DNA of 64,000 nt from Mustelus asterias (GCF_964213995.1 NC_135808.1:24676001-24740000), one strand, 5' to 3'; shown: positions 591-52,084, counted from the stretch's first letter. The notes: a model not told the origin generated them from the letters alone. Numbers and translations are program-made.

Positions 591-1104
591 AGGGAGGGAG
601 GGAGTGAGATTCGGTGAGTGAAGGAGGTGAGAGAGCCGGTGAGTGAGGGGGGGGAGTGAGAGTTGGTGAGAGAGGGGGGAGCGAGAGTCGGTGAGTGAGG
701 GGGGAGTGAGAGTCGGTGAGTGTGCGGGAGTGAGAGTCGGTGAGTGAGGGGGGAGTGAGAGTCGGTGAGTGAGGGGGGAGTGAGAGTCGGTGAGTGGGGA
801 GGGGAGTGGGACTCTCACTCCCGCTCACTCACCGACACTCACTCCTCCCTAACTCACCCACTCTCACTCCCCCCTCACTCAACGACTCTCACTCCCCCCT
901 CACTCACCGACTCTCACTCCCCCCTCTCTCACCGACTCTCACTCCCCCCCCTCACTCACCGGCTCTCTCACCTCCTTCACTCACTGAATCTCACTTCCTC
1001 CCTCCCTCACTCACTCTAAGTCCCCTGTGTCAGAACTGTGCTTTTAAGCAATGTATTTGCATTTCTTCTAAAGGGACTGTTTTATGTGTCAACTCTGATT
1101 ACTG
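494..1104. repeat. Spacerless inverted duplication (palindrome), arms of about 300 bp
   Basis: 494-810 is the reverse complement of 811-1104; ORFs 433..828(-) and 794..1105(+) share their translation. Confidence 0.92.
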
Positions 1105-3010
1105 AGGGGAGGAGTGAGCATCGGTGAGTGAGGGGGGAGTGAGAGTCGGTGAGCGAGGGGGGAGTGAGAGTCGGTGAGCGAGGGGGGAGTGAGAGTCGGT
1201 GAGTGAGGGGGGAGTGAGAGTCGGTGAGTGAGGGGGGGAGTGAGAGTCGGTGAGAGAGGGTGGAGTGAGCATCGGTGAGTGAGGGGGGAGTGAGAGTCGG
1301 TGAGTGAGGGTGGAGTGAGAGTCGGTGAGCGAGGGGAGAGTGAGAGTCGGTGAGTGAGGGGGGAGTGAGAGTCGGTGAGTGAGGGGGGAGTGAGAGTCGG
1401 TGAGTGAGGGGGGGAGTAAGAGTCAGTGAGTGAGGGGGGTAGTGAGAGTCGGTGAGAGAGGGTGGAGTGAGAGTCGGTGAGTGAGGGGGGAGTGAGAGTC
1501 GGTGAGTGAGGGGGGGAGTGAGAGTCGGTGAGAGAGGGTGGAGTGAGAGTCGGTGAGTGAGGGGGAATGAGAGTCGGTGAGTGAGGGGGGAGTGGGTGTC
1601 GGAGGGTGAGGGGGGAGTGAGAGTCGGTGAGTGAGGGGGGAGCGAGAGTCGGTGAGTGAGCGGGGAGTGAGAGTCGGTGAGTGAAGGGGGAGGGAGGGTC
1701 GGTGAGTGAGGGGGGAGTGAGAGTTGGTGAGTGAGGGGTGGAGTGAGAGTTGGTGATTGAGGGGGGAGTGAGAGTCGGTGAGTGAGGGGGAACTGAGTCG
1801 TTGTGCGAATGTGAGTGAGGGGGGAGTGGGAGTCGGTGAGTGAGGGGGAACTGAGTCGTTGTGCGAATGTGAGTGAGGGGGGAGTGAGAGTCGGTTAGTG
1901 AGGGGGGAGTAGGAATCAGTGGGTGAGGGAGGAGTGAGTGGGAATCGGTGAGTGAGGGGGGAGTGAGAGTCGGTGAGTGAGGAGGGAGTGAGAGTCGGTG
2001 AGTGAGGCGGGAGTGAGAGTCGGTGAGTGAGGCAGGAGTGAGATTCGGTGAGGGTGGAGGTATTGGGAATCAGTGGGTGAGTGAGGAGTGAGTGGGAATC
2101 GGTGAGTGAGGGGGGAGTGAGAGTCGGTGAATGAGGGGGGAGTGAGAGTCGGTGAGTGAGGGGGGAGTGAGAGTTGGTGAGAGAGGGGGGAGTGAGAGTC
2201 GGTGAGTGAGGGGGAATGAGAGTCGGTGAGTGAGGGGGGAGTGGGAGTCGGAGGGTGAGGGGGAGTGAGAGTCGGTGACTGAGGGGGAAGTGAGAGTCGG
2301 TGAGTGGGGGGGAGTGAGAGTCGGTGAGTGAGCGGGGAGTGAGAGTCGGTGAGTGAAGGGGGAGGGAGGGTCGGTGAGTGAGGGGGAAGTGAGAGTCGGT
2401 GAGTGAGGGGCGGAGTGAGAGTTGGTGATTGAGGGCGGAGTGGGAGTTGGTGAGTGAGGGGGGAGTGAGAGTCGGTGAGTGAGGGGGAACTGAGTCGTCG
2501 TGCGAATGTGAGTGAGGGGGGAGTGAGAGTCGGTGAGTGAGGGGGGAGTGAGAGTCGGTGAGTGAGGGGGGAGTGAGAGTCGGTGAGTGAGGAGTGAATG
2601 AGAATCGGTTAGTGAGGTGGGAGTAGGAATCAGTGGGTGAGGGAGGAGTGAGTGGGAATCGGTGAGTGAGGGGGGAGTGAGAGTCGGTGAGTGAGGAGGG
2701 AGTGAGTGTCGGTGAGTGAGGCGGGAGTGAGATTCGGTGAGGGTGGAGGTAGTGGGAATCAGTGGGTGAGGGGGGAGCGAGAGTGGGTGAGTGAGGGGGG
2801 AGCGAGAGTGGGTGAGTGAGGGGGGAGCGAGAGTTGGTGAGTGAGGAGGGAGCGAGAGTCGGTGAGTGAGGAGGGAGCGGGAATCAGTGGGTCAGGGTGC
2901 GTGAGGGGGGAGTGAGTGGGAATCAGTGGGTGAGGTGGGAGTGAGTGGGAATTGGTGGGTGAGTGAGAGGGGGGTGGGAATCAGTGGGTGAGGGGGACTG
3001 AGTCATTGAG
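1105..3010 (+). repeat. 25-bp G-rich minisatellite (GAGTGAGAGTCGGTGAGTGAGGGGG)n
   Basis: Period 25 is visible at 2521/2546/2571; further arrays at about 580-810 and 4290-4780. Confidence 0.95.
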
Positions 3011-3389
3011 TGACGCGTGACAGATAGAGAGAAAGGTAGAAAACACCGAGTGCATTTTGCAGAAAGCTGGAGGGAGATACTTATTTTCTATCAGCTTCCA
3101 GACTGCAATTTCCAGACAGAGAAAGGGAGAGAGAAAGAGCTGCTCCTTCCTTTTTCAAATTGAAACAGCAACTGCCTGCCTGTCCCTCTGTAACCCAAAC
3201 TGCTCCCATTGACATGATTTCCTTCTTGCCAATCAACCTAATTACACCCGACTCTGAAACACCAGGAGAAAACCACAACATTTCACAAAACTGCATTCGC
3301 TGAGTTTAAAACAAACACCCCAATAATTAGGAGCAATGATTCTTCCGCATTATATTGTGAAGTTTATGTTTTTAAAATGATAACACAAT

Positions 3390-4842: not shown

Positions 4843-5106
4843 TTGCCCCGATCGTGTCCTTTACCCGTCTGGGTGATTCTAACCAGCTGTCCTGTGCCGT
4901 CACTGGGTTTTACCCTCAAGCCATCGAGGTGAATCTGTGGAGAGATGAAGTGGTGATTGATGAGACTCTGTCCAGTGGGATCTTACCCAATCACGACAGC
5001 ACCTACCAGATCCGGAAATGGGCAGAGTTTGATCCAGAGGACCAGGCCGAGTATTCCTGTCGGGTGGAACACAGCGGGATGAATGAGACACTGGTGGTGA
5101 TTTACG
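4843..5106 (+). CDS. MHC class I heavy chain, alpha-3 (IgC1) exon
   Basis: Polypyrimidine tract plus AG at 4841-4842 and GTAAGA donor at 5107. The 264-bp phase1-phase1 exon reads (V)APIVSFTRLGDSNQLSCAVTGFYPQAIEVNLWRD...GILPNHDSTYQIRKW...YSCRVEHSGMNETLVVIY, with class I C1-set motifs C..GFYP, LPNxDxTYQ and YSCxVEH. Lineage (UAA vs non-classical) cannot be assigned without alpha1/alpha2. Confidence 0.93.
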
Positions 5107-7620: not shown

Positions 7621-9515
7621 TGTGATAACCCCCAGCACCTACAAGGGGAATCCCTGATTGACCCCCCAGTCAGACTCATGGGAATCTGAGTTCCAGTGGC
7701 GATAGGCAATTGCCTAACCAGGTGGAACTCGTATCCAGAGCCCTTGATAAGTCAATCCCTTGAGCGTGTCCGGTGTTCTATCATCCTGGATGGGACTCAT
7801 GTACATGGACCACAAAGTTGTGTTTTAACTTTTACTTTGACAAATACAATGTCGAATGATGAAAATGTGAGCTGGAAACTATGTTTGGCAGCCTGGTACA
7901 GATGGGGACATAGAGGAACTGGTTCAAACATGCAAAGCTTGCCAGGATAACCAGGGGGCCCCACCAGTAGCCTCTCTGTTCTCCTGGGAATGGCCGGGAA
8001 GTCCTTGGATTGTGCAGGGCCATTTATGGGCTCAATGTTTCTGATATTGATTGATGCCCACCCGAAGTAGATTGGTCTACACCGGGTGGCTTTTACCACT
8101 TCATATAACACCATAGAAAAGCTCGGGCAGTCTTTCAGTACGCATGAGATACCAGAGGTCCTCGTAACAGGCAATGGGACCCGTTTACCAGTGAAGAGTT
8201 CAAAACATTCATGACCACAAATGGAGTAAGACATGTCTGCACAGCCCCATATCACCTCTCATTGAATGGCTTCACAGGGCGAGCAGTCCAAGTAGAATCA
8301 TAGAACCTTAGAAACCCTACAATGCAGAAAGAGGCCATCTGGCCCATTGAGTCTGCACCGACCACAATCCCACCCAGGCCCTACCCCCATATCCCTACAC
8401 ATTTACCCGCTAATCCCTCTAACCTACGCATCTCAGGACACTAAGGGGCAATTTTAGCATGGCCAGTCAACCTAACCCGCAGATCTTTGGGTTCAAAAGC
8501 AGTTCAAAAAAGTGTTCAAAAGCAGCATGAAAAAAACAAACTCAGGGCTCCTTGGGCACAAAGTTGGTACAGTTCATTTTAACTCCAGGGCAACCCTGTA
8601 CATAATGACGGGTTTCGCCCCAGCAGAATTCCTGATGGGCACACGCCTGCGGGATCAGGCTGAGCCTCACTTTCCTGAATCTAAGTGTAAAAATTGAGGA
8701 GAAACAAAAAGCACAAAATATGGGCCAAGGGGGGACATTCGCCTGATTGGAATTTTAAACCAGGAGACACCGTCCACGTGCAAAACTTTGGAGATAGCAC
8801 CCAATGGACACCACGGGTTCCTCCCTCAAGGATCGGTCCAGTGTTATACACTGTAAAAACTGAAGACAAGATAGTAAGGAAACATATTGACCCTCTGACG
8901 CCGTCCGAAACGTTCGACAGAAGCAACTGGCACATCGAACGTGCCATCTTCGGCACCGTGCACATCGACTGGCAGCAAAGAAACTCAACCAACGCTTGGC
9001 TTCAAAACAGCTGGGGAGGACTCGGCCTTAGAAATGGAAATTGAGGCAGCGGAATCTCAGCCAGAGGTTGTTGTGGAGAGTGAGCCACCTGCAGTGACAC
9101 TTCGGCGGTCATCAAGAAAGAGACGGTCGCCGACTCGATGGACCTCTCCTGACCAGGTGGAGGATGCAATGGAAAGAAAGCCATTGGTCAAAGGATGAAG
9201 ATGTTCTTGACATCTCAGGAGTGAGGGAGAGCCCTCAGGCATGGAGGTGGAGGGATGTGATAACCCCGAGTACCTACAAAGGGAATCCCTGGTTGACCTC
9301 CCAGTAAGACTCATGGGATACGAGTGCCTGGGTGATTGGCAATTGCCTAACCAGGTGGAACCCGTATCCAGAGCCCTTGATAAGGCGGTCCCCTGAGCGT
9401 CCGGTATTCTATCATCCAAATGGAACTCATGTACACGTACCACAGGGTTGTGTTTTAATTTTACTTTGACAAACAAAACATTGTTCCTTTCCAGTCGGCT
9501 TCCTGAGTTATTACA
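7621..9515 (+). mobile_element. Internally deleted Gypsy/Ty3 LTR retrotransposon
   Basis: LTRs at 7621-~7850 (3'-truncated) and 9256-9515 (TG...CA), with purine tract GGAGGTGGAGGGA just before the 3' LTR. Degenerate integrase between them (CKAC, GPFMGSMFLILIDAH, PEVLVTGNG, TAPYH). No gag or RT. Confidence 0.85.
8294..8490 (-). mobile_element. HE1-type SINE, 3' half, inserted in the Gypsy integrase
   Basis: Matches the 3' half of 11256-11573. Confidence 0.85.
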
Positions 9516-12122: not shown

Positions 12123-12227
12123 AACCAAAGTCTCGCTCCCAGGTTGCTGTTACTGTCGGGATTGTGGTCGGGGTCCTCGTGCTCATCGCTCTCATCATTG
12201 TGGCTGTCGTCATCTACACCAAGAAAG
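12123..12227 (+). CDS. MHC class I connecting peptide/transmembrane exon
   Basis: Long CT-rich tract then AG at 12121-12122. Phase 1 joins alpha-3 to give EPKSRSQVAVTVGIVVGVLVLIALIIVAVVIYTKK (hydrophobic helix plus basic stop-transfer). It ends at a candidate GC donor AAAG/GCAGGA (12228); if unspliced it reads GRNLKGK to TAG at 12248-12250. Confidence 0.85.
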
Positions 12228-12489
12228 GCAGGAATTTGAAGGGAAAATAGCAGCTCCTCACTGGGGGGAGGGATTGTGGGAGAGTATTCCAGGTGGGGGT
12301 GGCTCAGGCTGTGGGACTCAGGTTGGTGTGGAGGAGGTCACAGAGTGGGTGGGAGAGCCGCAGGGTTGGGATAGGGAGGGTGAGGGGCTCAAGAAAAAGG
12401 GGGAGAGTTTGAGAATTCTGGGCTCTCATGTTGGATGAGGAGTTGAGGGCATCAGTGAGAGTCCCGGATCCCTGCAGGAGTGAGGGGCT

Positions 12490-13438: not shown

Positions 13439-14016
13439 GTGTTTGTTGCTCTGATGAATTGTGCTGGTGTTTAGGGGTCTGATGGGTTTGAGCTCATCAA
13501 GCCTCCTTCTCCCCTCTTCCAAATTTTCAATGATGAGCTCACCTTAAATCCACGCTAACTTTCCTTGATTAATCTGTGCCTTTCTAAATGAAGGTTTATA
13601 CTTCATCACATTGGAATTATTAATTCCAATAATTTTCCCACCAAGTAAGTTAAACTAACTGGTGTATAATTACTCAGATTGCCCCTTCATCCCTTTTCAA
13701 TCCATGGTGTAATGCTGTCAGTCCTTTAATCTCCGTTCACTCTCCTGTGACCGGGAAGAATGATTCTGATTATCGGAGCCTCTGCAATTCCCTCCTTTGC
13801 TCCTTTTAACCTGGTGATTTATCTCCTCTCAAACTTGTAAAATCCCTGAATACATCATCTCTTACAATGTTTATCTGATGCAGTAATTCACACATTTCCT
13901 CCTCAACTGCAATGTCAACATTGCTCCCTGTTTCCCAAACACAGTGGCAATGTATTTATTGTAAGAAGTTTAACAACACCAGGTTAAAGTCCAACAGGTT
14001 TATTTTGTAGCAAAAG

Positions 14017-14061
14017 CCATACGAGCTTTCGGAGCTCCAAGCCCCTTCTTCAGGTGAGTGG
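14017..14061 (-). ncRNA. Hammerhead motif, inverted pLTR copy
   Basis: Minus strand reads CACTCAC-CTGAAGA-A-GGGGCT TGG AGCTCC-GAAA-GC-TC-GTATGG. Confidence 0.7.
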
Positions 14062-16918
14062 GAATTCTGTTCACAAACAGGGCATATAAAGACACAAACT
14101 CAATTTACATGAATAATGGTTGGAATGCGAATACTTACAGCTAATCAAGTCTTTAAGATACAAACAACGTGAGTGGAGAGAGCATCAAGACAGGCTAAAA
14201 AGATGTGTATTGTCTCCAGACAAGACAGCCAGTGAAACTTTGCAGGTTCAGGCAAGCTGTGGGGGTTACAAATAGTGTGACATGAACCCAATATCCCGGT
14301 TGAGGCCGTCCTCGTGTGTGCAGAACATGGCTATCAGTTTCTGCTCAGCGACTCTGCGCCGTCGTGTGTCGTGAAGGCCGCCTTGGAGAATGCTTACCCG
14401 AATATCAGAGGCCGAATGCCCGTGACCGCTGAAGTGCTTCCCAACAGGAAGAGAACAGTCTTGCCTGGTGATTGTCGAGCGGTGTTCATTCATCCGTTGT
14501 CGCAGCGTCTGCATGTTTTCCCCAATGTACCATGCCTCGGAACATCCTTTCCTGCAGCGTATCACGTAGACAACGTTGGCCGAGTTGCAAGAGTATGTGC
14601 CGTGTACCTGGTGGATGGTGTTCTCACATGAGATGATGTCATCTGTGTCAATGATCCAGCATGTCTTGCCGAGGTTGCTGTGGCAGGGTTGTGTGGTGTC
14701 GTGGTCACTGTTCTCCTGAAGGCTGGGTAGTTTGCTGCGGACAATGGTCTGTTTGAGGTTGTGTGATTGTTTGAAGGCAAGAAATGCGGGTGTGGGGATA
14801 GCCTTGGAGAGATGTTCGTCTTCATCAATGACATGTTGAAGGCTCCGGAGGAGATGCCGTAGCTTCTCCGCTCCGGGGAAGTAATGGACGACGAAGGGTA
14901 CTCTGTCTATTGTGTCCCATGTTTGTCTTCTGAGGAGGTCGGTGCGGTTTTTCACTATAGCACGTTGGAACTGTTGATCAATGAGTCGAGCACTATATCC
15001 TGTTCTCATGAGGGCATCTTTCAGCGTCTGGAGGTGTCTGTTGCGATCCTCCTCATCCGAGCAGATCCTGTGTATACGGGGGGGGCTTGTCCGTAGGGGA
15101 TGGCTTCTTTAACATGTTTAGGGTGGAAGCTAGGGCAGTGGAGCATCGTGAGGTTATCCGTGGGCTTGCGGTACGGTGAGGTACTGAGGTGACCATCCTT
15201 AATGGAGATGCGTGTGTCCAAGAATGCAACCGATTCCGGAGAGTCGTCCATGGTGAGTCTGATGGTGGGATGGAACTTGTTGATGTCATCATAGAGTTGT
15301 TTCAGTGATTGTTCACCATGAGTCCAAAGGAAGAAAATGTAATCGATGTATCAGTACACTTCTAAATGACAACTAAACAATGAGGAACACTGCAGACAGT
15401 TACCTGCAGATCCGACCAAAGAACACACCCATCAACTCAACACTCTGATCAAGACCTTTGATCCGGACCTTCAGAGCACCCTCCTTGCTCTCATCCCACG
15501 TACTCCACACGTTGGAAATCTCTACTGCCTCCCGAAGATACACAAGGCAAACACACCTGGCCATCCCATCATATCGGGCAATGGAACCTTGTGCGGGAAC
15601 CTCTCCGGCTATGTCGAGGGCATCCTGAAACCCATTGTACGAAGAACTCCCAGCTTTTGTCATGACACTGTGGACTTCCTACAGAAACTCGGCATACATG
15701 GAGCAGTTGAACCAGGAGCACTCCTCGTCACAATGGATGTCTCGGCACTCTACACCAGCATCCCCACGATGATGGCATTGCTGCAATGGCCTCAGTGCTC
15801 AGCGCCGACAAATGCCAGTTTCCAGATGCAATTTTACAACTCATCCGCTTCATCCTGGACCACAATGTCTTCACCTTCAACAACCAGTTCTTCATCCAGA
15901 CACACGGAACAGCCATGGGGACCAAATTCGCACCTCAATATGCCAACATCTTCATGCACAGGTTCGAACAAGACTTCTTCACCGCACGGGACCTTCAACC
16001 GATGCTATACACTAGATACATCGATGACATTTTCTTCCTTTGGACTCATGGTGAACAATGACTGAAACAACTCTATGATGACATCAACAAGTTCCACCCC
16101 ACCATCAGACTCACCATGGACTACTCTCCGGAATCGGTTGCATTCTTGGACACACGCATCTCCATTAAGGACGGTCACCTCAGCACCTCACTGTACCGCA
16201 AGCCCACGGATAACCTCATGATGCTCCACTTCCCCAGCTTCCACCCTAAACAGTTAAAGAAGCCATCCCCTACGGACAAGCCCTCCATATACACAGGATC
16301 TGCTCAGATGAGGAGGATCGCAACAGACACCTCCAGACGCTGAAAGATGCCCTCATGAGAACAGGATATAGTGCTCGACTCATTGATCAACAGTTCCAAC
16401 GCGCCACAGCGAAAAACCGTACCGACCTCCTCAGAAGACAAACACGGGACACAGTGGACAGAGTACCCTTCGTCGTCCAGTACTTCCCTGGAGTGGAGAA
16501 GCTACGGCATCTCCTCCGGAGCCTTCAACATGACATTGATGAAGACGAACATCTCGCCAAGGCCATCCCCACACCCCCACTTCTTGCCTTCAAACAACCG
16601 TACAACCTCAAACAGACCATTGTCCGCAGAAGACTACTCAGCTTTCAGGAGAACAGTGACCACGACACCACACAACCCTGTCACAGCGACCTCAGCAAGA
16701 CGTGCCGGATCATTGACACAGATGCCATCATCTCACGTGAGAACACCATCCACCAGGTACACGGTACATACTCTTGCAACTCGGCCAACGTTGTCTACCT
16801 GATACGCTGCAGGAAAGGATGTCCCGAGGCATGGTACATTGGGGAAACTATGCAGACGCTGCGACAATGGATGAATGAACACCGCTCGACAATCACCAGG
16901 CACCTGTGAACAGAATTT

Positions 16919-16963
16919 CCACTCACCTGAAGAAGGGGCTTGGAGCTCTGAAAGCTTGTGTGG
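16919..16963 (+). ncRNA. Minimal type-I hammerhead ribozyme motif in Penelope pLTR
   Basis: CAC-CTGAAGA-A-GGGGCT(TGG)AGCTCT-GAAA-GC-TT-GTG: core CUGANGA and GAAA, stem II, stem I CAC/GTG, palindromic AAGCTT at helix III. Confidence 0.75.
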
Positions 16964-17427
16964 CTTTTGCTACCAAATAAACCTGTTGGACTTTCACCTG
17001 GTGTTGTTAAACTTCTTAATGTGTTTTACCCCAGTCCAACGCCGGCATCTCCACATAATGTATTTATTCACAACCTCGCCACATTCTCCACCCTCTCTCA
17101 CAGGCTATCTTGTTGGTCTCCAAAAAGTTCTCCCCTTTCCTTATCCTTTTCTCTTCATGTACTGATACAGCATGTTTGGAGGTTCTTTGATATTTTCTTG
17201 GCAGCATTTTTCATGCCCTCTCTTTACTTTTCTGATTTCCTTTTTAATTTCACCCTGACACTCTCTGTACTATTCCAGGTTTCTGCATTATTAGGCGTGA
17301 GGCGTCTGATGGACTTTGCTGTTGGTATATGTGGGAGTTGGGTGGATCTGATGTGTTTTGTTGGGGGTGCTCCAGCTCTGCTGGGTTTGCCTCACTCTAA
17401 AGTGATGTCTTTCTTTCTCATCCCCAG

Positions 17428-17531
17428 TGCGGGCCCGGCAGTTTAATCCAGAGGTACCAGTCCCTGAGAACAGCAGTGGACAAGAGAATGAGGGAAGATG
17501 TGATGTCATCAAGCTGACAACCATTAACTGA
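17428..17531 (+). CDS. Candidate MHC class I cytoplasmic (last) exon, copy 1
   Basis: Acceptor ttctttctcatccccAG. Phase-1 join with the TM exon gives an open frame VRARQFNPEVPVPENSSGQENEGRCDVIKLTTIN-TGA; AATAAA follows at 17710-17715. Confidence 0.6.
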
Positions 17532-17709
17532 TTCAAGTTCCACATTTGTAACTCTGTAACTGGAACTGTGGTCATGGTTTGTCAGGAATTCCCCTATTTG
17601 GTGCTGCACTTTTTAAGCTATTCTGATCTGCCCTATCATCCTGCACAAATTCTAGGAACTTGTCTCGTTCACTGCAAACTGCAATCTGTAACTTTGCTGC
17701 AATGTCTGC

Positions 17710-17715
17710 AATAAA
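17710..17715 (+). promoter_or_regulatory. Candidate polyadenylation signal of the MHC class I gene
   Basis: AATAAA about 180 bp after the stop codon of the candidate last exon, followed by T-rich sequence. Confidence 0.45.
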
Positions 17716-17814
17716 TGATTTATTTTCACTTCCTGCCTCTGCAAAGTCTTCAATACAAAACTAATATTACTGGGGTAGGGTAACACCACTGCAGTGGAGA
17801 ACATTTCAAGACAT

Positions 17815-18138
17815 GGGCGTTACGGTGGCACAGTGGTTAGCACTGCTGCTTCACAGCGCCAGGGACCTGGATTCAATTCCCAGCTTAGGTCACTTTCTGT
17901 GTGGAGTTTGCACATTCTCCTCGTGTCTGCGTGGGTTGCCTCCGGGTGCTCCGGTTTCCTCCCACAGTCCAAAGATGTGCGGGTTAGGTGGACTGGCAAT
18001 GCTAAAATTGCCCCTTAGTGTCAGGGGGACTAGCTAGGGTAAATGCATGGGTTGCGGTGAGAGGGGTCTGGGTGGTATTGTGGTCGGTGCAAACATGATG
18101 GGCTGAATGGCCTCCTTCTGCACTGTATGATTCTATGA
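17815..18138 (+). mobile_element. HE1-type SINE
   Basis: A/B boxes and GATTCTATGA tail; the paralogous copy at 23253-23487 is 3'-truncated. Confidence 0.9.
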
Positions 18139-18189
18139 ATTTGAGAAGAAATGACCAGAAATGTACATCAAGAGGAATTAGTAACAATA

Positions 18190-21100
18190 AATTAGCAGCA
18201 AGAACAGATTTCAAAAAGGAAGGTCAGGTACTAGAGAGTACCCCAGTGGCTGTGCCCCTTAAAAATAAGCACTCCTGTTTGAGTGCTGTTGAGGGGAGCA
18301 GCCTACCTGGGGGAAGCAATAGTGGCCGTGCCTCCGGCGCAGAGTCCGGCCCGGCAGCTCAGAAGGGTAGGGGAAGGGAGGATGAGCAAACTAACCGCCG
18401 CACCAAGGTACAGTGAGCCGTCCAAGTGGGGGGAGAAACAAGAAATGTAGTAGAAATTGGGGACAGTACACTTTTGGATGCCTTTGGGGGGGGGGGGGGG
18501 AAGACTGAGCAGGGGTAAGCCATAGTGTACAGGTCGCTGACTCAGAGTCTGTCCTTGTGGCTCAGAAGGGAAGGGGGGAGAGGTGTAGAGGATTAGTCAT
18601 TGGGGACTCCATAGTTGAAGGGACGGACAAGAGATTCTGCGGGAACGAGAGAGACTCGCGGTTGGTGTGTTGCCTCCCAGGAGCCAGAGTCCACGATGTC
18701 TCGGATCGTGTTTTCGAAATCCTTAAGGGGGAGGGGGACCTGCCCCAAGTTGTGGTTCACATAGGTACTCAAGACATAGGTAGGAAAAGGGGTGGGGATG
18801 TAAGGCAGAAATTCAGGGAGTTAGGGTGGAAGCTTAGGGCTAGAACAAACAAAGTTGTTATCTCTGGTTTGTTACCCGTGCCACGTGATAGTGAGGAGAG
18901 GAATAGGGAAAGAGAGCAGTTGAACACGTGGTTACAGGGATGGTGCAGGAGGGAAGGTTTCAGATCCCTGGACAATTGGGGCTCTTTCTGGGGTAGGTGG
19001 GACCTCTACAAACAGGATGGTCTGCACCTGAACCAGAGGTGTACCAATATCTTGGGGGAGAAAATTTGCTAATGCTCTTCGGGAGGGTTTAAAGTAATTC
19101 AGCAGGGGGGTGGGTACCTGAATTGTAGCTCCGGTGTGCAGGAAGTTATGATGTGGAGATGCCGGCGTTGGACTGGGGTAAACACAATAAGAAGTTTAAC
19201 AACACCAGGTTAACCTGGTGTTGTTAAACTTCTTACTGTGCAGGAAGTTGACAGTAGTGAGGTCATGAATGAGGTTTCAGGGTCGCAGGAGTGTACTAGC
19301 AGGCAGGAAGGTGGTTTGAAGTGTATATACTTCAACGCCAGGAGAATCCGGAATAAGGTGGGTGAACTTGCAGCATGGGTTGCTACCTGGGATTTCGATG
19401 TTATGGCCATCTCGGAGACATGGATAGAGCAGGGACAGGAATGGTTGTTGCAGGTTCCAGGGTTTAGATGTTTCAGTAAGTGCAGGGAAGGTGGTAAAAG
19501 AGGGGGAGGTGTGGCATTGTTAGTCAAGGACAGTATTACGGTGGCAGAAAGGACATTGAGGAGGACTCGTCTACTGAGGTAGTTTGGTCTGAGGTTAGAA
19601 ACAGGAAAGGAGAGGTCACCCTGTTGGGAGATTTTTATAGATCTCTGAAAAGTTCCAGAGATGTACAGGAAAAGATTGCAAAGATGATTCTGGATAGGAG
19701 CGAAAGTAACAGGGTAGTTGTACTGGGGGACTTTAACTTTACAAATATTGACTGGAAAAGCTATAGTTCGAGAATTTTGGAGGGGTCGGTTTTTGTCCAA
19801 TGTGTGCAGGAAGGCTTCCTGACACAGAATGTAGAAAGACCAACAAGAGGCGAGGCCACATTGGATTTGGTACTGGGTAATGAAACAGGCCAGGTGTTAG
19901 ATTTGGAGGTAGGTAAGCACTTTAGTGACAGTGACCGCAATTCGATTACGTTTACCTTAGCTATGGAAAAGGATAGGTATATACCAAAGGGCAAGAGTTA
20001 TAGCTGGGGGAAAGGAAATTATGATGCGGTTTGGGGAGATTTAGCTGGCATAGGGGAAGGAAACTGCAGGGGATGGGCACAATTGTAATGTGGAACTTGT
20101 TCAAGGAACAGCTACTACACGTCCTTGATAAATATGTACCTGTCAGGCAGGGAGGAAACAGACGTGTGAGGGAACTGTGGTTTACTCAGGAGATTGAATC
20201 TCTTGTGAAGAGGAAGAAGGAGACTTATGTTAAGATGAGACATAAAGGCTCAGTTAGGGAGCTTGAGAGTTACAAGTTAGCCAGGAAGGACCTAAAGAAA
20301 GAGTTAAGAAGAGCCAGGAGCGGACATGAGAAGTCTTTGGCAGGTAGGATCAAGGAAAACCCGAAAGCTTTCTATAGGTATGTCAGGAGTAAAAGAATGA
20401 CGAGGGTAAGATTAGGGCCAGTCAAGGACAGGAGTGGGAAGTTGTGCGTGGAGTCTGAAGAGATAGGAGAGGCACTAAATGAATATTTTTCGTCAGTATT
20501 CACACTGGAGAGGGACAGTGTCGAGGGGAGTACTGAGATGCAGGCTGTTGGACTGGATGGGATTGAGGTTCATAAGGAGGAGGTGTTAGCAATTCTGGAT
20601 AGGGTAAAAATATATAAGTCCCCTGGGCCGGATGGGATTTATCCTAGGATTCTCTGGGAGGCTAGGGGGGAGATTGCAGAGCCTTTGGCTTTGATCTTTG
20701 GGTCGTCATTGTCTACTGGAACAGTGCCAGAAGACTGGAGGATAGCAAATGTTGTCCCCTTGTTCAAAAAGGGGAGTAGGGACAACCCTGGTAATTATAG
20801 ACCAGTGAGCCTTACTTCTGTTGTGGGCAAAGTATTGGAAAGGATTATAAGAGATAGGATTTATAATCACCTGGAAAGGAATAATTTGATTTGGGATAGT
20901 CAGCACGGTTTTGTGAAGGGTAGGTCGTGCCTCACAAACCTTATTGAGTTCTTTGAGAAGGTGACCAAAGAGGTGGATGAGGGTAAAGCGGTTGATGTGG
21001 TGTATATGGATTTCAGCAAAGCGTTTGATTAGGTTCCCCATGGTAAGCTTTTGCAGAAAATACGGACACATGGGATTGAGGGTGATTTACTGGTTTGGAT

Positions 21101-21907
21101 CAGGAATTGGCGAGCTGTAAGAAAACAGAGGGTGGTGGTTGATGGGAAATATTCATCCTGGAGTTCAGGTACCAGTGGTGTACCGCAAGGATCTGTTTTG
21201 GGGCCACTGTTGTTTGTCATTTTTATTAATGACTTGGATGAGGGTGCAGAAGGATGGGTTAGTAAATTTGCGGATGACACTAAAGTCGGTGGAGTTGTAG
21301 ACAGTGCGGAGGGAAGTGGCAGGTTACAAAGGGACATAGATAAGCTGCAGAGCTGGGCTGAGAGCTGACAAATGCAGTTTAATGCAGAAAAGTGCGAAGT
21401 GATTCACTTTGGGAGGAGTAATAGGAATACAGAGTACTGGGCTAATGGTAAGATACTTGGTAGTGTGGATGAACAGAGGGATCTGGGTGTCCATGTGCAT
21501 AGATCCCTGAAAGTTGGCACCCAGGTTGATAGGGTTGTTAAGAAGGCGTACGGTGTGTTAGCTTTTATTGGGAGAGGGATTGAGTTTCGAAACCAGGAGG
21601 TCATGTTGCAATTGCACAAAACTCTGGTGTGGCCGCACTTGGAGTATTGCGTACAGTTCTGGTCACTGCATTATAGGACAGATGTTAGAGGTAGGTTCTT
21701 TACTCAGAGAGTAGTAAGGGCGTGGAATGCCCTGCATGTAGCAGTAGTGGACTCGTCAACATTAAGAGCATTCAAATGGTTATTGGATAAACATATGGAT
21801 GATATTGGAATAGTTTAGATTAGAGGGACTTTAGATTGGTTTCACTGGTTGGCGCAACATCGAGGGCCGAAGGGCCTGTACTGTGCTGTAATGTTCTATG
21901 TTCTATG
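18190..21907 (+). mobile_element. Near full-length CR1 (HER1-like) LINE
   Basis: ORF1 SGNH esterase (VIGDS, CLPGARV, HIGTQD, DGLHLN); ORF2 APE endonuclease (FNARRIRNK, ISETW, GDFN) and RT ([36 protein letters not shown]); (GTTCTAT)n tail. Several stops and frameshifts. Confidence 0.95.
19148..19236 (-). mobile_element. Mini Penelope-like insertion (family 1), 89 bp
   Basis: Tail plus short hairpin centred on CCAGGTTAACCTGG; 13-bp TSD TGTGCAGGAAGTT (19135-19147, 19237-19249). Confidence 0.88.
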
Positions 21908-22254
21908 ATGGTGCTTCTCAAAGGTCCGAGTATTCTTTGAGATGGTAACAGACATGATGATGGGAAAACGTGGTGGATATGTGCAGCTGGATTTTAGAAA
22001 AATGTTCCCACACAGGGATTATCAGTTAAGATTAAATGAGTACTTTGCGCATCTCTTTAACTGGATCACAATGTTCTTGTATCATTGCCGCCTCTCATTC
22101 CAGATTAAAACCTGGAAGATGCATGAAGGTGACAATAAGTAACCTTTGCGGTCTTGTCCAGTTCCACCTCCCAAGCTGTAATTCCTGATTTTGATAACCC
22201 ACCACACAGGTGTGTGACGCATGTCCTGTAGTTCCATGTGGAATTTAGGCTGCC

Positions 22255-22560
22255 AGCTGAGTAGAGGTATTGCAACAGGACTAGTAATCCAGAGACACAG
22301 GATAAATTTCTGGGAACCGAGATTTGAATCCCACCAAGACAGAGGGTGGAATTTGACCTCAAGAAAAAATAAAATCTGGAATTAAAAGTCTAATGATGAC
22401 CATGAAACCATTATTAATTGTTGTAAAAACCCATCTTGTTCACTGCTGTCGTTTAGGGAAGGAAATCTGCCATCCTTACCTGGTCTGGCCTGCATGTGAC
22501 TCCAGACCCACAGCAATGTGGTTGTCTCTTAAATGTCTTTGGAAATGACCCAGCAGGATC
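22255..22560 (+). mobile_element. Second SINE-like family (degenerate)
   Basis: B-box-like GATTTGAATCCC; its 3' segment (GACTCCAGACCCACAGCAATGTGGTTG) recurs at about 32780-32885. Confidence 0.55.
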
Positions 22561-22867
22561 TAGGTGGAGGGCGTGCAATGTTCATCTACCCACTTCAGCT
22601 GCATCACTGTAGCTTGTCACCAGGTGGTTCCACTGCGGCATCCTCTTTGACAGAGCTGCCTTGGGCTCAGCACACTGTGGGGGGAGCTGATTAAGATCCA
22701 GCAGAGGGAGTGTCTGCTGGGTAGTTGTTTATAGAGCTGGCCAATTAAGATGCCGTGTCCAGCACCCAATGTGGGAGTTGGGTGGATCTGATGTGTTTTG
22801 TTGGGGGTGCTCCAGCTCTGCTGGGTTTGCCTCACTCTAAAGTGATGTATTTCTTTCTCATCCCCAG

Positions 22868-22971
22868 TGCGGGCCAGGCAGTGTAATCCAGAGGTACCAG
22901 TCCCTGAGAACAGCAGTGGACAAGAGAATGAGGGAAGATCTGCTGTCATCGAGCTGACAGCGACCAACTGA
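22868..22971 (+). CDS. Candidate MHC class I cytoplasmic (last) exon, copy 2
   Basis: Same acceptor, same length, open frame VRARQCNPEVPVPENSSGQENEGRSAVIELTATN-TGA. The downstream AATAAA-containing segment of copy 1 is absent. Confidence 0.45.
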
Positions 22972-24585
22972 TTCAAGTTCCATATTTGTGACTCTGTAAA
23001 TGGAACTGTGGTCATGGTTTGTCAGGAATTCCTCTATCTGGAGCTGCACATTTAAAGCTATTCTGATCTGCCCTATCATCCTGCACAAACTTGAGGAACC
23101 TGTCTCGTTCACTGCAAACTCAGTCACCTGTTTCTGCAATCTGTCACTTTGCTGCAATGTCTTTCACTTCCTGCCTCTGTGAAGCCTTCAATACAAAACT
23201 AATATTGCTGGGGTAGGGTAACACCACTGCAGTGCAGAACATTTCAAGACATGGGCGGCATGGTGGCACAGTGGTTAGTACTGCTGCCTCACAGTGCCAG
23301 GGTCCTGGGTTCAATTCCCAGCTTGGGTCACTGTCTGTGTGGAGTTTGCACATTCTCCGCGTGTCTGTGTGGGTTTCCTCCGGATGCTCCAGTTTCCTCC
23401 CACAGTCCAAAGATGCGCAGTTGAGATGGATTGGCAATGCTACAATTGCCCCTTAGTGTCAGGGGGACTAGCTAGGGTAAATGCATGTTGAATTCAGAAC
23501 AGCTTGTGGATGCGGCCCTGTGCCGTCCGCTGAGGGGAATGGTCTGGCCCGTTAAGCAATAGCTCTGAGTTGAGTTTGATTGCACTGTGCAACTGCTGCG
23601 ATTCGAGCTCCAAGTAGAGTTGACATCAGCAGGTGAATAGTCGATTTTGTGAATCCAGTATTCCATTGTTTAGTGGCGAATTTCCCAGTTTTTTATTGAG
23701 CTGCATTCCTTGTTGACTTGGCTGACTTCCACAGTCAGAGAGAGAGATTTGAGATATACCTGTAAAAGGGCCACTGTAGTGTGTGATCACCCCCATGAAC
23801 ATAGAACATAGAACATTTCAGCACAGAAACAGGCCTTTTGGCCCTTTTTGCCTGTGCCGAACCATTTTTGTGCCTAGTCCCACTGACCTGCACCTGGACC
23901 ATATCCCTCCACACCCCTCTCATCCATGTACCTGTCCAAGTTTTTCTTAAATGTTAAAAGTGCATTCACCACCTCATCTGGCAGCTCATTCCAAACTCCC
24001 ACCACTCTGTGCGAAGAAGCCCCCCCTAATATTCCCTTTAAACTTTTCCCCCCTCACTCTTAACCCATGTCCTCTAGTTATTTTCTCCCCGAGCCTCAGT
24101 GGAAAAAACCTGCTTGCATTCACTCTATGGATACCAATCATAATTTTATACACCTCTATCAAATCTCCCCTCATTCCTCTATGCTCCAGGGAATAAAGTC
24201 CTAACCTATTCAACTTTTCTCTGTAACTCAGTTTCTCAAGTCCCGGCAACATCCTTGTAAACCTTCTCTGCACTCTTTCAACCTTATTAATATCCTTCCT
24301 GTAATTAGGTGACCAAAACTGCACATAATACTCTAAATTCGGCCTCACCAATGTCTTATACAACTTCACCATAACATTCCAACTCCGATATTCAATACTT
24401 TGATTTATAAAGGCCAATGTACCAAAAGCACTCTTTACGACCCTATCTACCTGTGATGCCACTTTTAGGGAATTATGTATCTGTATTCCCAGATCTCTCT
24501 GTTCTACTGCACTCTTCAGTGTCCTACCATTTACCTTGTATCTTCTACCTTGGTTTGTCCTTCCAAAGTGCAATACCTCACACTT

Positions 24586-33927: not shown

Positions 33928-34829
33928 CTATTGTTTATTAATGAAACGGATAATTGATGTAAACGGATATTTCAGCGCGCTCTTGAACTGATCCCTGAAC
34001 TTAGACTGAGTCACTCCATATATAAATGCATTTGTGCAGCAACTTAAATCCACCAGCATAACTCCAACTTGATCAAATATATATAAAGAATCGTTATAAT
34101 TTGCGGGATTAGTTCCTGAAATTATATCATATAAGAAATTTGTAACATATAAAAACCATAAGAGTATGAAGCTCCCAGATATGGTGAAGAGTAAAATCAT
34201 AGACTTCCTTCTGCCCTCCATCTCTGGGTCACTGCGATTATCGCATTTGCTCTGACCCCTCAGTCCCTTCCGTACTCGACTGGTCACTAAAATATATCTG
34301 ACTGTAAGAGTGTTGAGCAATAGAATTGAAACATATGGGATCAATGGAGTTGAAACCGTTTCAAACCATTCAAATGCCACCCATCCTGGGTCAGTATAAT
34401 AACTTGGTTTTTCATTACAGAACCAGGGGACATTGTCGATTATCTCTCTAGGTTCAAACCTAAAGTAGATCGGAATGGCTTTTAAACACATCAGGGTGCA
34501 AGTGGTTGATAGTACTGCAGCTGCAGTTTGTTCGGTGCAGTATTTCGTTTTCAGCTTCTGACAACAAATGGCCACAAATCGATCGAAGGAGAAAGTGACG
34601 GTGAACCAGACAGAACAGTTCACAGTTGCATAAAGCAGTACAAAGATAATAGTACATGCAGGGGTGATGTTCAGTAAAGATCCTGGGAAAAAGTAGCTGA
34701 TCCGATATAATATGACCGCAGTGATAATCACCAGAAGATCTGCCGCTGCCATGGCCACGAGGTACCGAGTAGTACAGCTGGAGAGACCGCAGTTTCTCCG
34801 GGACAGGATCACGATTGCCATTAAATTAA
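33928..34829 (-). CDS. GPR139/GPR142-like orphan class A GPCR, exon 2
   Basis: Acceptor ctcccatacAG. Open 300-codon frame with AAADL (TM2), CSVWFTVTFSFDRFVAICC (TM3), TM5 PLIPY, SGSFILLW (TM6) and CCTNAFIYGVTQSKFR (TM7/H8). Confidence 0.92.
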
Positions 34830-35399
34830 CTGTATGGGAGGGATAAAAATGTAGACTGTAAGTTACTGATCCAGCATTCTCCATATCGGCTGGGTTGGTG
34901 TGGGGCATCAGCTGATTGTTTGAAATAGATCTTTATTTACCCAAAGACAATTTAAACTTGCAAATATCTGTGCTTAACAGAATTAGGATTGTGGGCTCTG
35001 GGAGGGGTTATCATAATTTCTTTTATTTTTTAATAAACTTCAAATAATCTATTGCACATACGTCACAGACACAGTTCTCAGACTTTGGGCAATGTGAAAG
35101 GTGAAAGAGGGATGAGCACAACTTCAAGGCTAAGGCAAGTGTCTTCATAACACCTCTTATGTGCAAGGGGAAAGTAGTAGTTTTCTTGCTTCACCTCCAC
35201 CTTGCACGCAATACACAAACTCCACCACCGCCTCAACCCCATCCAAACAGAAAGGAACCCGAAGCAGCCATCAGTCCCTGCATGTCCAGACAACCACGCC
35301 CAGTAACGAAGTTAGAACGGAACAGAACTGCTCCTGAAGAGTGCTATGAAGCCTCGCCCGCCCTACCTCCGCCGAATGTGGAGAGAGCCCTGACAACTG

Positions 35400-49520: not shown

Positions 49521-52084
49521 TGCATGGGAAGATGCCGTGGGCAGTGGGTGAGGAGTTGGGTGTGATGGAGGAGTGGATCAGCCTATCCCAGAACGAGTGG
49601 TCCCTGTGGAATGCTGACAGCGGGGGCGAAGGGAAGCTGTGTTGGGTAGTGGCATCATGCTGGAGTTGGCAGAAATGGCTGAGGATAGTCCTTTGAATGG
49701 GAACAGAAAATACTGGAAAATCTCAGCAGGTCTCACAGCCTCTGTGGGGAGAGAATAGTCCCAACATCTCGAGTCTAGATGACCCTTCGACAGAGCGGTC
49801 TGTATTGCCATTAATGGGTTTACCATGTGAAAACAAACAGATTAAAGAAGGCCAGGGCTATCGCTCAGCAAGTATGGACCCACTGAAATCCATAAGCACT
49901 TGGGGCTCAGTCATTTTGGAATAGAACCATAGAAAATTTCAGCTCAGAAACCGGCCTTTTGGCCCTTCTTGTCTGTGCCGAACCATTTTTTGCCCAGTCC
50001 CACTGACCTGCACTTGGAATAGAACCATAGAAAATTTTCTTCAATTTTCTTAAAGGTTTATTTGTTAGTGTTACAAGTAGGCTTATAGTAACACTACAGT
50101 GTGAAAATCCCCTAGTCGCCACACCCCGGCACCTGTTGGGGTACATTGGGGTAGAATGTAGCCTGGCCAAAGCACTGAACCTTCACGTCTTTTGTCTATG
50201 GGAGGAAACCAGCGCATCCGCACAGACAGTCATCCAAGCTGGGAACCAAACCTAGGTCCCTGGCGCTATGATTCAGCAGTGCTAACAACTGTGCCAATTG
50301 AAACCTCAACCGTGGAGAATTAATAACAGTGCACAATGACAGATCACAGGACTATACCATACCAATCCCAATGTATTAGAAAGAATCAGATGAGTATATT
50401 GCAGATGTTACAGATATAACCTTCCAATGTTTCACCATGTCGGGAACTACTTGATCAATAAGGTTCTGTTCACTCAAGTTAAAGAAGTGCACAAAGGCCA
50501 ACTCCCAGTTCAAGATATGAAAGGTGCAGATGTGATGCAGTTGGCTGGCGAGAAGCCAGACATCTTAAACAATCCTGAGATTGGTGATGGCGTAATACAT
50601 TCTATTAAGCAGCGTGCTCTGTTGGTGTGGTTGGGTTACCGAGTTGTGCAGGTTAGGTGGATTGGCCGTGCTAAATTGCCCCTTAGTGTCAGGAAGACTA
50701 GTTAGGCTAATACAGGGGGTTATGGGGACAGGGCCTGGGTGAGGTTGTGGTCGTTCCAGACGATAGGCTGAATGGCCTCCTTCTGAACTGTACGATTCTA
50801 TGACTCTCATAAACCTGAGCTGCAAAGGTGTCTGGGAAAGGGGAGCAGAGATTGAATGTGATGGAAGTGTGGGCCAAGTTTTCCACGCCACAAAGAGGTG
50901 AGGGCACCCTGCTTATCCTTATAACTGTGTGCAAGATATTCAGCTGTTCCATTGACCCAGGCCTGCGAAGAATGACCACTTAGAGCCATAGCAGTGACGG
51001 AAATCAGAGGCTGCTCGGCACTTTAAATAATTGAAGCAGATTGTTTTCTTCCACTTGTAACGTGTCTCCAATGCAGCCAATAGTGAGCAAGTTTGTGCTA
51101 TGCGGATATTGGTGAGTGAATTTCGTTTGAATTTTAAACTTTAAATCAACACATGCTGCGTCAGAAGTTGAATGGTAAACCATAATTTCTAGCTACATTT
51201 TCGTTTTCTCTCTTACAGTTAAGTGTAGTGGCGATTGCAGTCCTGACCTGAGGGAAGTGCAGCCTTTCCACTTTCACCACTCGCTACATGGTGGCCATGG
51301 CAATGGTAGATCTGCGAGTCATTATCAACGCTGTCATATTCTTAGGAATCAGTTCTTATTATTTGCTGTCATCTTTTTGGAACATCGCCCCTGTTTGCAG
51401 TGTTAGCTTCATCCTGATTTATGCAGCTGCGGAATGTTCTGTCTGGTTCATTGTCGTTTTCTCCTTTGATAGATTTGAGACCATTTGTTGCTCGAAGATT
51501 GAAACAAAATATTGCTCCGAGAAAACGGCAGTTGTTGTTCTTTCGACGACTTGAACTCTACTCTGTTTAAAAGCCAACCTGGTCAATTCAGACCTGAACC
51601 TGGAGAGGTAATTGACAATGTTCCCTTGTTCCGTAATGACAAGCAAAGCTATTATACTGATCTTGGGTGGCATTTAATTTATTTGATAGCATTTTTACAA
51701 CATTGCTCCAGTTGACTACAATTATGTTGCTCAATGCTATGACAGTCAGATATATTTTAGTGACGTGACGAGTCCTTAAGGGACTGAGGGGTCAGAACCA
51801 GGGAGAGAATCGCAGTGACCCAGAGGTGGAGAGCAGAAGGAAGTCTGTGATTTTGCTCTTCCCCTTTTCTGGCAGTCTCATACTTCAATGGATTTTAAAT
51901 GGAATCAAGTTGTCGTGTGTTGGAGTGCAGGAGGTAATCACGAATATTACAATGATTCCTTGAAAGTCTTTGTGAAAATCAGACCGATGCTGGTGGATTT
52001 AAATTGCGATACAAACGCATTTATTATGTAGTGGCCCAATGCAAGTTCAAAGAACAGTTCAAAAGTCTGGTGAAATATTCGGTT

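What the first reader, a model, noticed from the sequence alone, without database searches (positions are those of the whole stretch)
17329..23487. Duplicated cytoplasmic last exon gives one MHC class I gene two alternative tails
Seen: a ~720-bp block is present twice, 5.4 kb apart, with a near full-length CR1 between. Each copy keeps the same acceptor and a 104-nt open frame in phase with the TM exon: VRARQFNPEVPVPENSSGQENEGRCDVIKLTTIN vs VRARQCNPEVPVPENSSGQENEGRSAVIELTATN. Differences cluster at the C-terminus and are mostly amino-acid changing. The F/C codons (TTT, TGT) are each one step from TAT, the tyrosine usual near this position of class I tails. Only copy 1 has AATAAA. Neither exon is in the ORF track. 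Inference: alternative last exons could tune trafficking of a probably non-classical class I molecule.
Basis: partly seen in the sequence, partly recalled or inferred. Interest (0 to 1): 0.7.

Follow-up and report, generated by a model that had tools for sequence, protein, structure and literature searches.

The report
Shark MHC gene lost tyrosine tail
The doubled block is likely the normally untranslated last exon of a shark immune-display (MHC class I) gene family; this gene and five sisters lack both normal tail exons, so they would make a tyrosine-free tail, and the second copy is likely a spare left by a local duplication rather than a tuned alternative tail.

Summary
The duplication is real (724 nt, 90%), but the block is not a decayed cytoplasmic exon. 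In 14 of 14 ordinary paralogues of this shark UBA cluster it lies behind two tail exons. The second of these ends in a stop, one base and a GT donor (12 of 14), so the block is likely the 3'-UTR exon, joined in phase 1. Six genes of one divergent branch lack both tail exons and carry the block twice. One contig from run X1 joins TM to a copy-1-type exon of a sister gene, giving a 5-residue stub, as RefSeq P0010 does. In the window gene the TM donor has changed GT to GC, and no RefSeq model uses either copy. The F codon comes from TGT, not TAT. Copy differences look neutral (6 non-synonymous, 3 synonymous; p=0.44). Verdict: a tail-loss branch with a probably spare duplicate; two regulated tails are not shown. 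The scan noted the same tail deletion earlier in another shark genome (e1-9321173).

The parts
4843..5106 (+). alpha3 (Ig C1) exon of a UBA-lineage MHC class I gene; the leader, alpha1 and alpha2 exons lie about 10.7, 2.0 and 1.3 kb before the window
   Evidence: open frame, GT/AG sites intact
12123..12227 (+). TM exon; its donor is GC (AAG|GCAGGA), where 22 of 27 donors read have GT
12228..12250 (+). read-through into the intron ends at a stop after 7 residues (tail KKGRNLKGK), the ending of RefSeq models P0009, P0073, P0074
13435..13493 (.). approximate junction of the ~2.5-kb deletion that removed both cytoplasmic exons, at the end of a 25-nt minisatellite
   Evidence: the match to paralogue L068 jumps from ~756 to 3242, skipping its cyto1 (828-908) and cyto2 (1460-1617)
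13961..17056 (.). Penelope-like retroelement insertion (inverted RT pieces; name from recall), absent from sister genes E and F
17329..18049 (+). copy 1 of the block, in the ancestral position: 99 nt intron, acceptor 17428, 33-codon phase-1 frame to 17531, AATAAA 17710, SINE from 17813
   Evidence: collinear with paralogue L032 on both sides
18223..21906 (+). CR1 LINE with broken ORFs, inserted after the duplication (empty site in sister gene E, whose copies are 1.75 kb apart)
22769..23487 (+). copy 2, the derived duplicate: acceptor 22868, 33-codon frame to 22971, AATAAA deleted; next AATAAA at 24192

Best explanation
The block is likely the normal 3'-untranslated last exon of shark UBA class I genes; one branch of six genes deleted both cytoplasmic exons, so its TM exon would splice straight into this exon, and the doubling is likely a selectively neutral local duplication. 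Shown in DNA: the exon order in paralogues, the deletion, the duplication, the later CR1 and Penelope-like insertions, and the GT>GC change. Shown once in a contig: TM joined to a copy-1-type exon of a sister gene, where a 1-nt deletion gives the stub KKVRARQ. Inferred: order of events is deletion, then duplication (copy 2 new, 1.75 kb downstream), then conversion of the 5' 170 nt, then insertions and the GC donor in the window-type genes. Inferred for the window gene: the weakened donor gives mostly read-through (7-residue basic stub) and at best some splicing to copy 1 (33 residues of former UTR). Copy 2 lies behind copy 1's poly(A) signals and would be reached rarely. Every possible tail lacks tyrosine, so the protein, if made, would be taken up from the surface more slowly, as with HLA-G (inferred by analogy).
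For: Order TM-cyto1-cyto2-block in 14 of 14 ordinary paralogue loci. Stop, one G, then GTATGA in 12 of 14, which explains the phase-1 fit. The phase-1 frame of the block is 3, 4, 8, 17, 19, 28 or 33 codons among 25 rows, with frame-shifting indels in 6. cyto1 and cyto2 are absent in 4 of 4 branch genes read through (window, B, E, F), and no cyto2 hit lies there in C or D (40 of 45 candidates scored). Exactly six alpha1 exons are 83-100% like the window gene's, the next 66%; they are the six genes with a doubled block. dN 6/78, dS 3/24, p=0.44. Site 17354 is shared by both copies in A-D and differs in both copies of E and F, a conversion mark. Copy 1 is frameshifted in E and F. An X1 contig joins TM to that frameshifted copy-1 type; the junction is in no stored DNA locus; RefSeq P0010 (gene F) ends the same way. 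0 of the stored proteins carry either 33-codon tail.
Against: The cyto2-to-block junction of ordinary genes was not seen in RNA; it is inferred from splice sites and gene models. The X1 junction is one contig of one run, kind 'RNA?' by guess, under another organism label, with 30 letters on the TM side (14 printed), one short of the tool's 31-letter rule. Copy 2 keeps its acceptor and 33-codon frame in 6 of 6 genes (about three independent lines, 1-4% apart). The branch lost the family's early stop and took a 6-nt in-frame deletion. The last 33 nt differ more than the UTR (p=0.022). Many ordinary paralogues also have no AATAAA within 520 nt of the acceptor, so its loss need not silence copy 2. 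11 of 95 stored class I proteins use this exon as coding or partly coding sequence, from five shark genera, so its frame may not be free of selection. About 15-18% of human GT>GC variants still splice (PMC8375439, abstract start in listing).
Confidence: 0.7

Rival explanations
1. One reading: the window gene splices its TM exon through the GC donor to either copy and makes two 33-residue tails under regulated choice.
For: Both acceptors and both frames are intact in A-D. A GC donor can work. Five of seven residue-level differences lie in the last 11 codons.
Against: The donor is a derived GT>GC in a weak context, 6 of 9 consensus matches. Changes are at the neutral rate. Copy 2 is downstream of AATAAA at 17710 and 18186. 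RefSeq models of this type read through or go elsewhere. Neither tail has a Tyr or dileucine motif.
Confidence: 0.08
2. The window-type genes (four near-identical copies) are decaying pseudogenes and make no protein; only sister genes E and F are expressed.
For: GC donor; three large insertions (about 8 kb more in intron 1 than the upstream paralogue, Penelope-like, CR1). None of 4 RefSeq models joins the real leader exon. The one junction seen is of the E/F type.
Against: Leader, alpha1, alpha2, alpha3 and TM are open with usable splice sites. Read-through alone gives a membrane protein with a short basic tail. The model of gene F also lacks the leader although its junction type is seen in X1.
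Confidence: 0.3
3. The last exon is an old, selected second tail of shark UBA genes, reached by skipping cyto1 and cyto2; this branch fixed that isoform.
For: RefSeq isoforms of Cetorhinus (P0104 beside P0051), Scyliorhinus (P0027 beside P0098), Carcharodon and Heterodontus splice TM or alpha3 into this exon with a similar peptide.
Against: The frame is broken or shifted in 6 of 25 Mustelus rows and ends differently in Heterodontus. Those proteins do not group with this branch in the quick tree. Slow shark DNA change can keep a UTR peptide alike without selection (inference).
Confidence: 0.2

Closest known systems
Shark UBA non-classical MHC class I lineage (nurse shark AAC60347, labelled UBA in the supplement of PMC10751288; horn shark AAC60348)
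   Same: alpha3 79% and 84% identical; sits in a large multicopy cluster, as that paper describes (passages).
   Different: Typical members end in a Tyr exon and a Ser-rich exon (59 of 95 stored proteins by a simple pattern). This branch has lost both and has a divergent alpha1 (66% or less to other paralogues).
HLA-G short cytoplasmic tail (PMC3021195, passages read)
   Same: Non-classical class I with a short tail lacking an endocytosis motif; its last exon is untranslated.
   Different: HLA-G uses a premature stop in exon 6 and skips exon 7. Here two exons are deleted from the DNA and the last exon becomes partly coding. Analogy only, no orthology.
Exon 7-deleted class I splice variants of mouse, cow and chicken (PMC3157908, passages read)
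   Same: The class I tail is changed by exon choice, which alters internalisation.
   Different: Those keep the exon 6 tyrosine and are splice variants; here the tyrosine exon is gone and the change is genomic.
RefSeq models XP_078073715.1 (P0010) and XP_078075050.1 (P0073), Mustelus asterias
   Same: Already annotate this branch: the first splices TM to copy 1 of sister gene F (5-residue stub), the second reads through the TM exon.
   Different: Neither notes the deletion or the duplicate; no stored model uses copy 2 or the 33-codon frame.

Membership tests
Shark UBA class I lineage | Sequence closest to reference UBA proteins | tested here: met
   alpha3 79% to AAC60347 (P0049), labelled UBA in the PMC10751288 supplement; falls among shark UBA rows in the quick tree
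Shark UBA class I lineage | Multicopy cluster apart from other class I genes | tested here: met
   44 of 85 alpha3 matches are 90% or more and lie at C8:21.6-24.7 Mb; other full-length matches are 60% or less
Shark UBA class I lineage | Cluster flanked by c4 and rxrb (PMC10751288) | not tested
   flanking genes were not searched
Tyrosine-bearing class I cytoplasmic exon (exon 6 type) | Membrane-proximal Tyr codon, in the exon directly after TM in ordinary paralogues | tested here: not met
   That exon is a different one (cyto1) and is deleted here. The block has TGT in 3 of 3 outgroups and no TAT in 12 copies
Class I 3'-UTR terminal exon (exon 8 type) | Lies behind the stop-bearing exon, which ends in a donor | tested here: met
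   14 of 14 loci for the order; 12 of 14 for stop-G-GTATGA
Class I 3'-UTR terminal exon (exon 8 type) | Joined to the stop-bearing exon in mRNA | tested here: inconclusive
   That junction was not displayed; the acceptor is used from TM in one contig and in RefSeq isoforms
Pair of alternative last exons | Two intact acceptors behind one exon | tested here: met
Pair of alternative last exons | Working upstream donor | tested here: inconclusive
   GT>GC in the window gene; GT in sisters E and F
Pair of alternative last exons | Each exon has its own poly(A) signal | tested here: inconclusive
   Copy 2 lost the AATAAA; the next is at 24192
Pair of alternative last exons | Both junctions present in RNA | tested here: inconclusive
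   Only a copy-1-type junction of a sister gene was seen; contigs cannot show absence
Pair of alternative last exons | Divergence of the two frames departs from neutrality | tested here: not met
   6 non-synonymous and 3 synonymous changes, p=0.44; low power
HLA-G-like short-tailed class Ib (works-like comparison) | Longer surface half-life from loss of the endocytosis motif | not testable with these tools
   No Tyr in any possible tail; trafficking needs a cell assay

The most novel reading that the evidence does not exclude
A divergent branch of shark UBA genes has turned a former 3'-UTR exon into a new tail and doubled it, so that last-exon choice switches the protein between a 5-residue HLA-G-like stub (copy 1 in genes E and F) and a 33-residue tail born from UTR (copy 2, open in 6 of 6 genes): de novo tail evolution caught in progress.
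Probability: 0.12. Interest if true: 0.6.

Novelty: new variant of a known kind. Interest (0 to 1): 0.3.

Why it matters
Shark UBA genes have no known function. A branch in which a divergent groove goes together with loss of the conserved tyrosine tail gives a concrete test: these molecules should stay longer at the surface and not cycle through endosomes, as HLA-G does. It also shows how phase-1 junctions let class I genes gain a new tail from 3' UTR in one deletion. The duplication itself probably matters little unless copy 2 proves to be spliced.

Tried and rejected
Run search: no RNA holder on record was listed. X2, X3, X5 and X6 behave as DNA, with contigs running unspliced across the acceptor; they give no junction. 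No X1 contig with copy-2 alleles or with the window's own copy-1 alleles was among those listed (some rows cut); contigs do not show absence, so this is not used as evidence. Contig depths were not used to rank expression. Rejected: origin of F/C from a Tyr codon. Rejected: assembly artefact for the two copies; whether all four 400-kb units A-D are real was not tested. Rejected: one ancient short-tail lineage across sharks; last-exon users do not group in the quick tree (careful search unfinished, 61 rows, P0056 dropped as too short, P0104 mislabelled 'other' there). PMC8454915 and PMC7002201, the main UBA/UDA/UEA papers, are not held, and Bartl 1997 was seen only as a reference; they or their supplements may describe UBA tails. 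Paper searches listed nothing on shark UBA tail exons or a duplicated last exon; one search was empty. Other shark genomes could not be fetched, so their exon structure rests on RefSeq proteins.

Full report
Observation. The block 17329-18049 recurs at 22769-23487 (724 columns, 90.3%). Both copies keep the acceptor and a 104-nt frame in phase with the TM exon 12123-12227. AATAAA at 17710 is deleted in copy 2. A 3.7-kb CR1 with broken ORFs lies between. Contigs of other samples hold each copy with its own flank. A 33-codon open frame arises in 14-21% of random trials.

The gene. The alpha3 exon is identical to RefSeq proteins labelled Mustelus asterias on a contig of the same length as C8, and 79-84% identical to nurse and horn shark proteins. 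The nurse shark protein AAC60347 is labelled UBA in the supplement of PMC10751288. That paper describes a multicopy UBA cluster (passages); PMC12562908 calls UBA an expanded non-classical family (passages). Leader, alpha1 and alpha2 lie before the window and are open. The cluster holds 44 alpha3 exons at 90% or more (44 of 85 matches). The block has 49 matches, all on C8 at 21.8-24.7 Mb (40 of 56 candidates scored).

What the block is. In 14 of 14 ordinary paralogue loci the order is TM, a 33-nt exon with the tyrosine, a Ser-rich exon, then the block 1.5-6 kb further on. The Ser-rich exon ends in the stop, one G and GTATGA in 12 of 14; L032 has a dead donor and L080 was not matched. So the block is most simply the 3'-UTR exon, joined in phase 1, which is why it fits the TM exon. 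Its phase-1 frame is 3, 4, 8, 17, 19, 28 or 33 codons among 25 rows, a few of them near-duplicates, with frame-shifting indels in 6. The joining of cyto2 to the block was not seen in RNA and is inferred.

What happened in this branch. Six genes (A = window, B-D near-identical to it, E, F) have alpha1 exons 83-100% alike; the next is 66%. They are the six with a doubled block. cyto1 and cyto2 are absent in the 4 read through, and no cyto2 hit lies there in the other two. The deletion is about 2.5 kb. Copy 1 is collinear with ordinary paralogues on both sides, so copy 2 is the new one. In E and F the copies are 1.75 kb apart; the CR1 and a Penelope-like element came later in A-D. All six share one origin, so the link between divergent alpha1 and tail loss is a single event. 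In E and F the donor is GT and copy 1 has a 1-nt deletion that stops the frame after four codons. In A-D copy 1 is open but the donor is GC; 22 of 27 donors read are GT, 5 GC, and 5 of 32 loci were not matched.

The T that makes F is found only in copy 1 of A-D; the other 8 copies and 3 outgroups have G, and no copy has TAT. The copies differ by 6 non-synonymous changes in 78 sites and 3 synonymous in 24 (p=0.44). The ORF differs no more than UTR plus SINE (p=0.85). The 5' 170 nt, intron included, are nearly identical (p=0.0009), and site 17354 is shared by both copies within A-D, as gene conversion would give. The last 33 nt show a mild excess (p=0.022, boundary chosen afterwards), which I count against my reading.

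RNA evidence. In run X1 (kind 'RNA?' by guess, another organism label) one 272-nt contig has the TM end joined to the exon start with the E/F deletion and copy-1 alleles. This junction is in no stored DNA locus. It gives the stub that RefSeq P0010, the model of gene F, also has. Of 4 RefSeq models of the window type, 3 read through the TM exon and 1 leaves it out; none uses either copy or the true leader. Eleven of 95 stored class I proteins from five shark genera run into this exon; in Cetorhinus and Scyliorhinus they are isoforms beside other tails. The evidence behind those models is not visible here. They do not group with this branch in a quick tree.

Mechanism. Deleting two phase-1 exons brings the UTR exon next to TM. 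In E and F the product has a 5-residue stub. In the window gene the GC donor would favour read-through to a 7-residue stub, with some splicing to copy 1 possible; about 15-18% of human GT>GC variants still splice (PMC8375439, abstract start in the listing). Copy 2 lies behind two AATAAA and would be reached rarely, though many ordinary paralogues also lack a near AATAAA. No possible tail has a tyrosine. In mammals the exon 6 tyrosine is needed for endosomal trafficking (PMC3157908, passages), and the short HLA-G tail prolongs surface life (PMC3021195, passages). The same effect is inferred here, not tested.

Novelty. Searches listed no paper on shark UBA tail exons; two key papers were not held. 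An unchecked note of this scan reports the same deletion in another shark genome, and another describes this gene's branch as having an oily groove. I had stated my reading before seeing either. Verdict: a new variant of a known kind, interest 0.3. The tail loss is the real feature; two regulated tails have about 8-12% odds.

Noticed in passing
L032 (G000:C8:24646.5-24660.8 kb, just before the window): The upstream UBA paralogue has a frameshifted alpha3 and a dead cyto2 donor (ATATGA); it recurs in four of the ~400-kb repeat units.
   Followed up: partly
G000:C8:21.6-24.7 Mb: The UBA cluster holds about 44 alpha3 exons in near-identical ~400-kb units repeated up to four times; real segmental duplication or assembly expansion was not tested.
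   Followed up: no
L063 (G000:C8:24408873-24409025, -): Another paralogue, with a cyto2 exon, also has a GC donor after its TM exon.
   Followed up: no
L081 (G000:C8:22515000-22524500, -): A TM exon and a divergent last exon with no cyto1 or cyto2 between them and no alpha3 hit nearby: possibly a second, separate loss or an orphan fragment.
   Followed up: partly
P0027, P0099, P0103, P0011, P0054: Several RefSeq isoforms skip the TM exon (alpha3 joined to the last exon or to cyto2) and would be secreted UBA forms.
   Followed up: no
window 52085-57719: Two direct repeats of 0.8-1.1 kb (83-89%) around a ~3.7-kb stretch with a broken env-like frame near 54004 (-): likely a decayed LTR element or provirus. 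Observed only.
   Followed up: no
window ~33930-34932 (-), with an inverted look-alike at 51208-52085: A 334-codon open frame that reads like a single-exon GPCR (from recall, not searched).
   Followed up: no
window 9013-9200: RefSeq model P0072 joins alpha3 to a frame inside an LTR-type element in the alpha3-TM intron; probably a modelling artefact.
   Followed up: no
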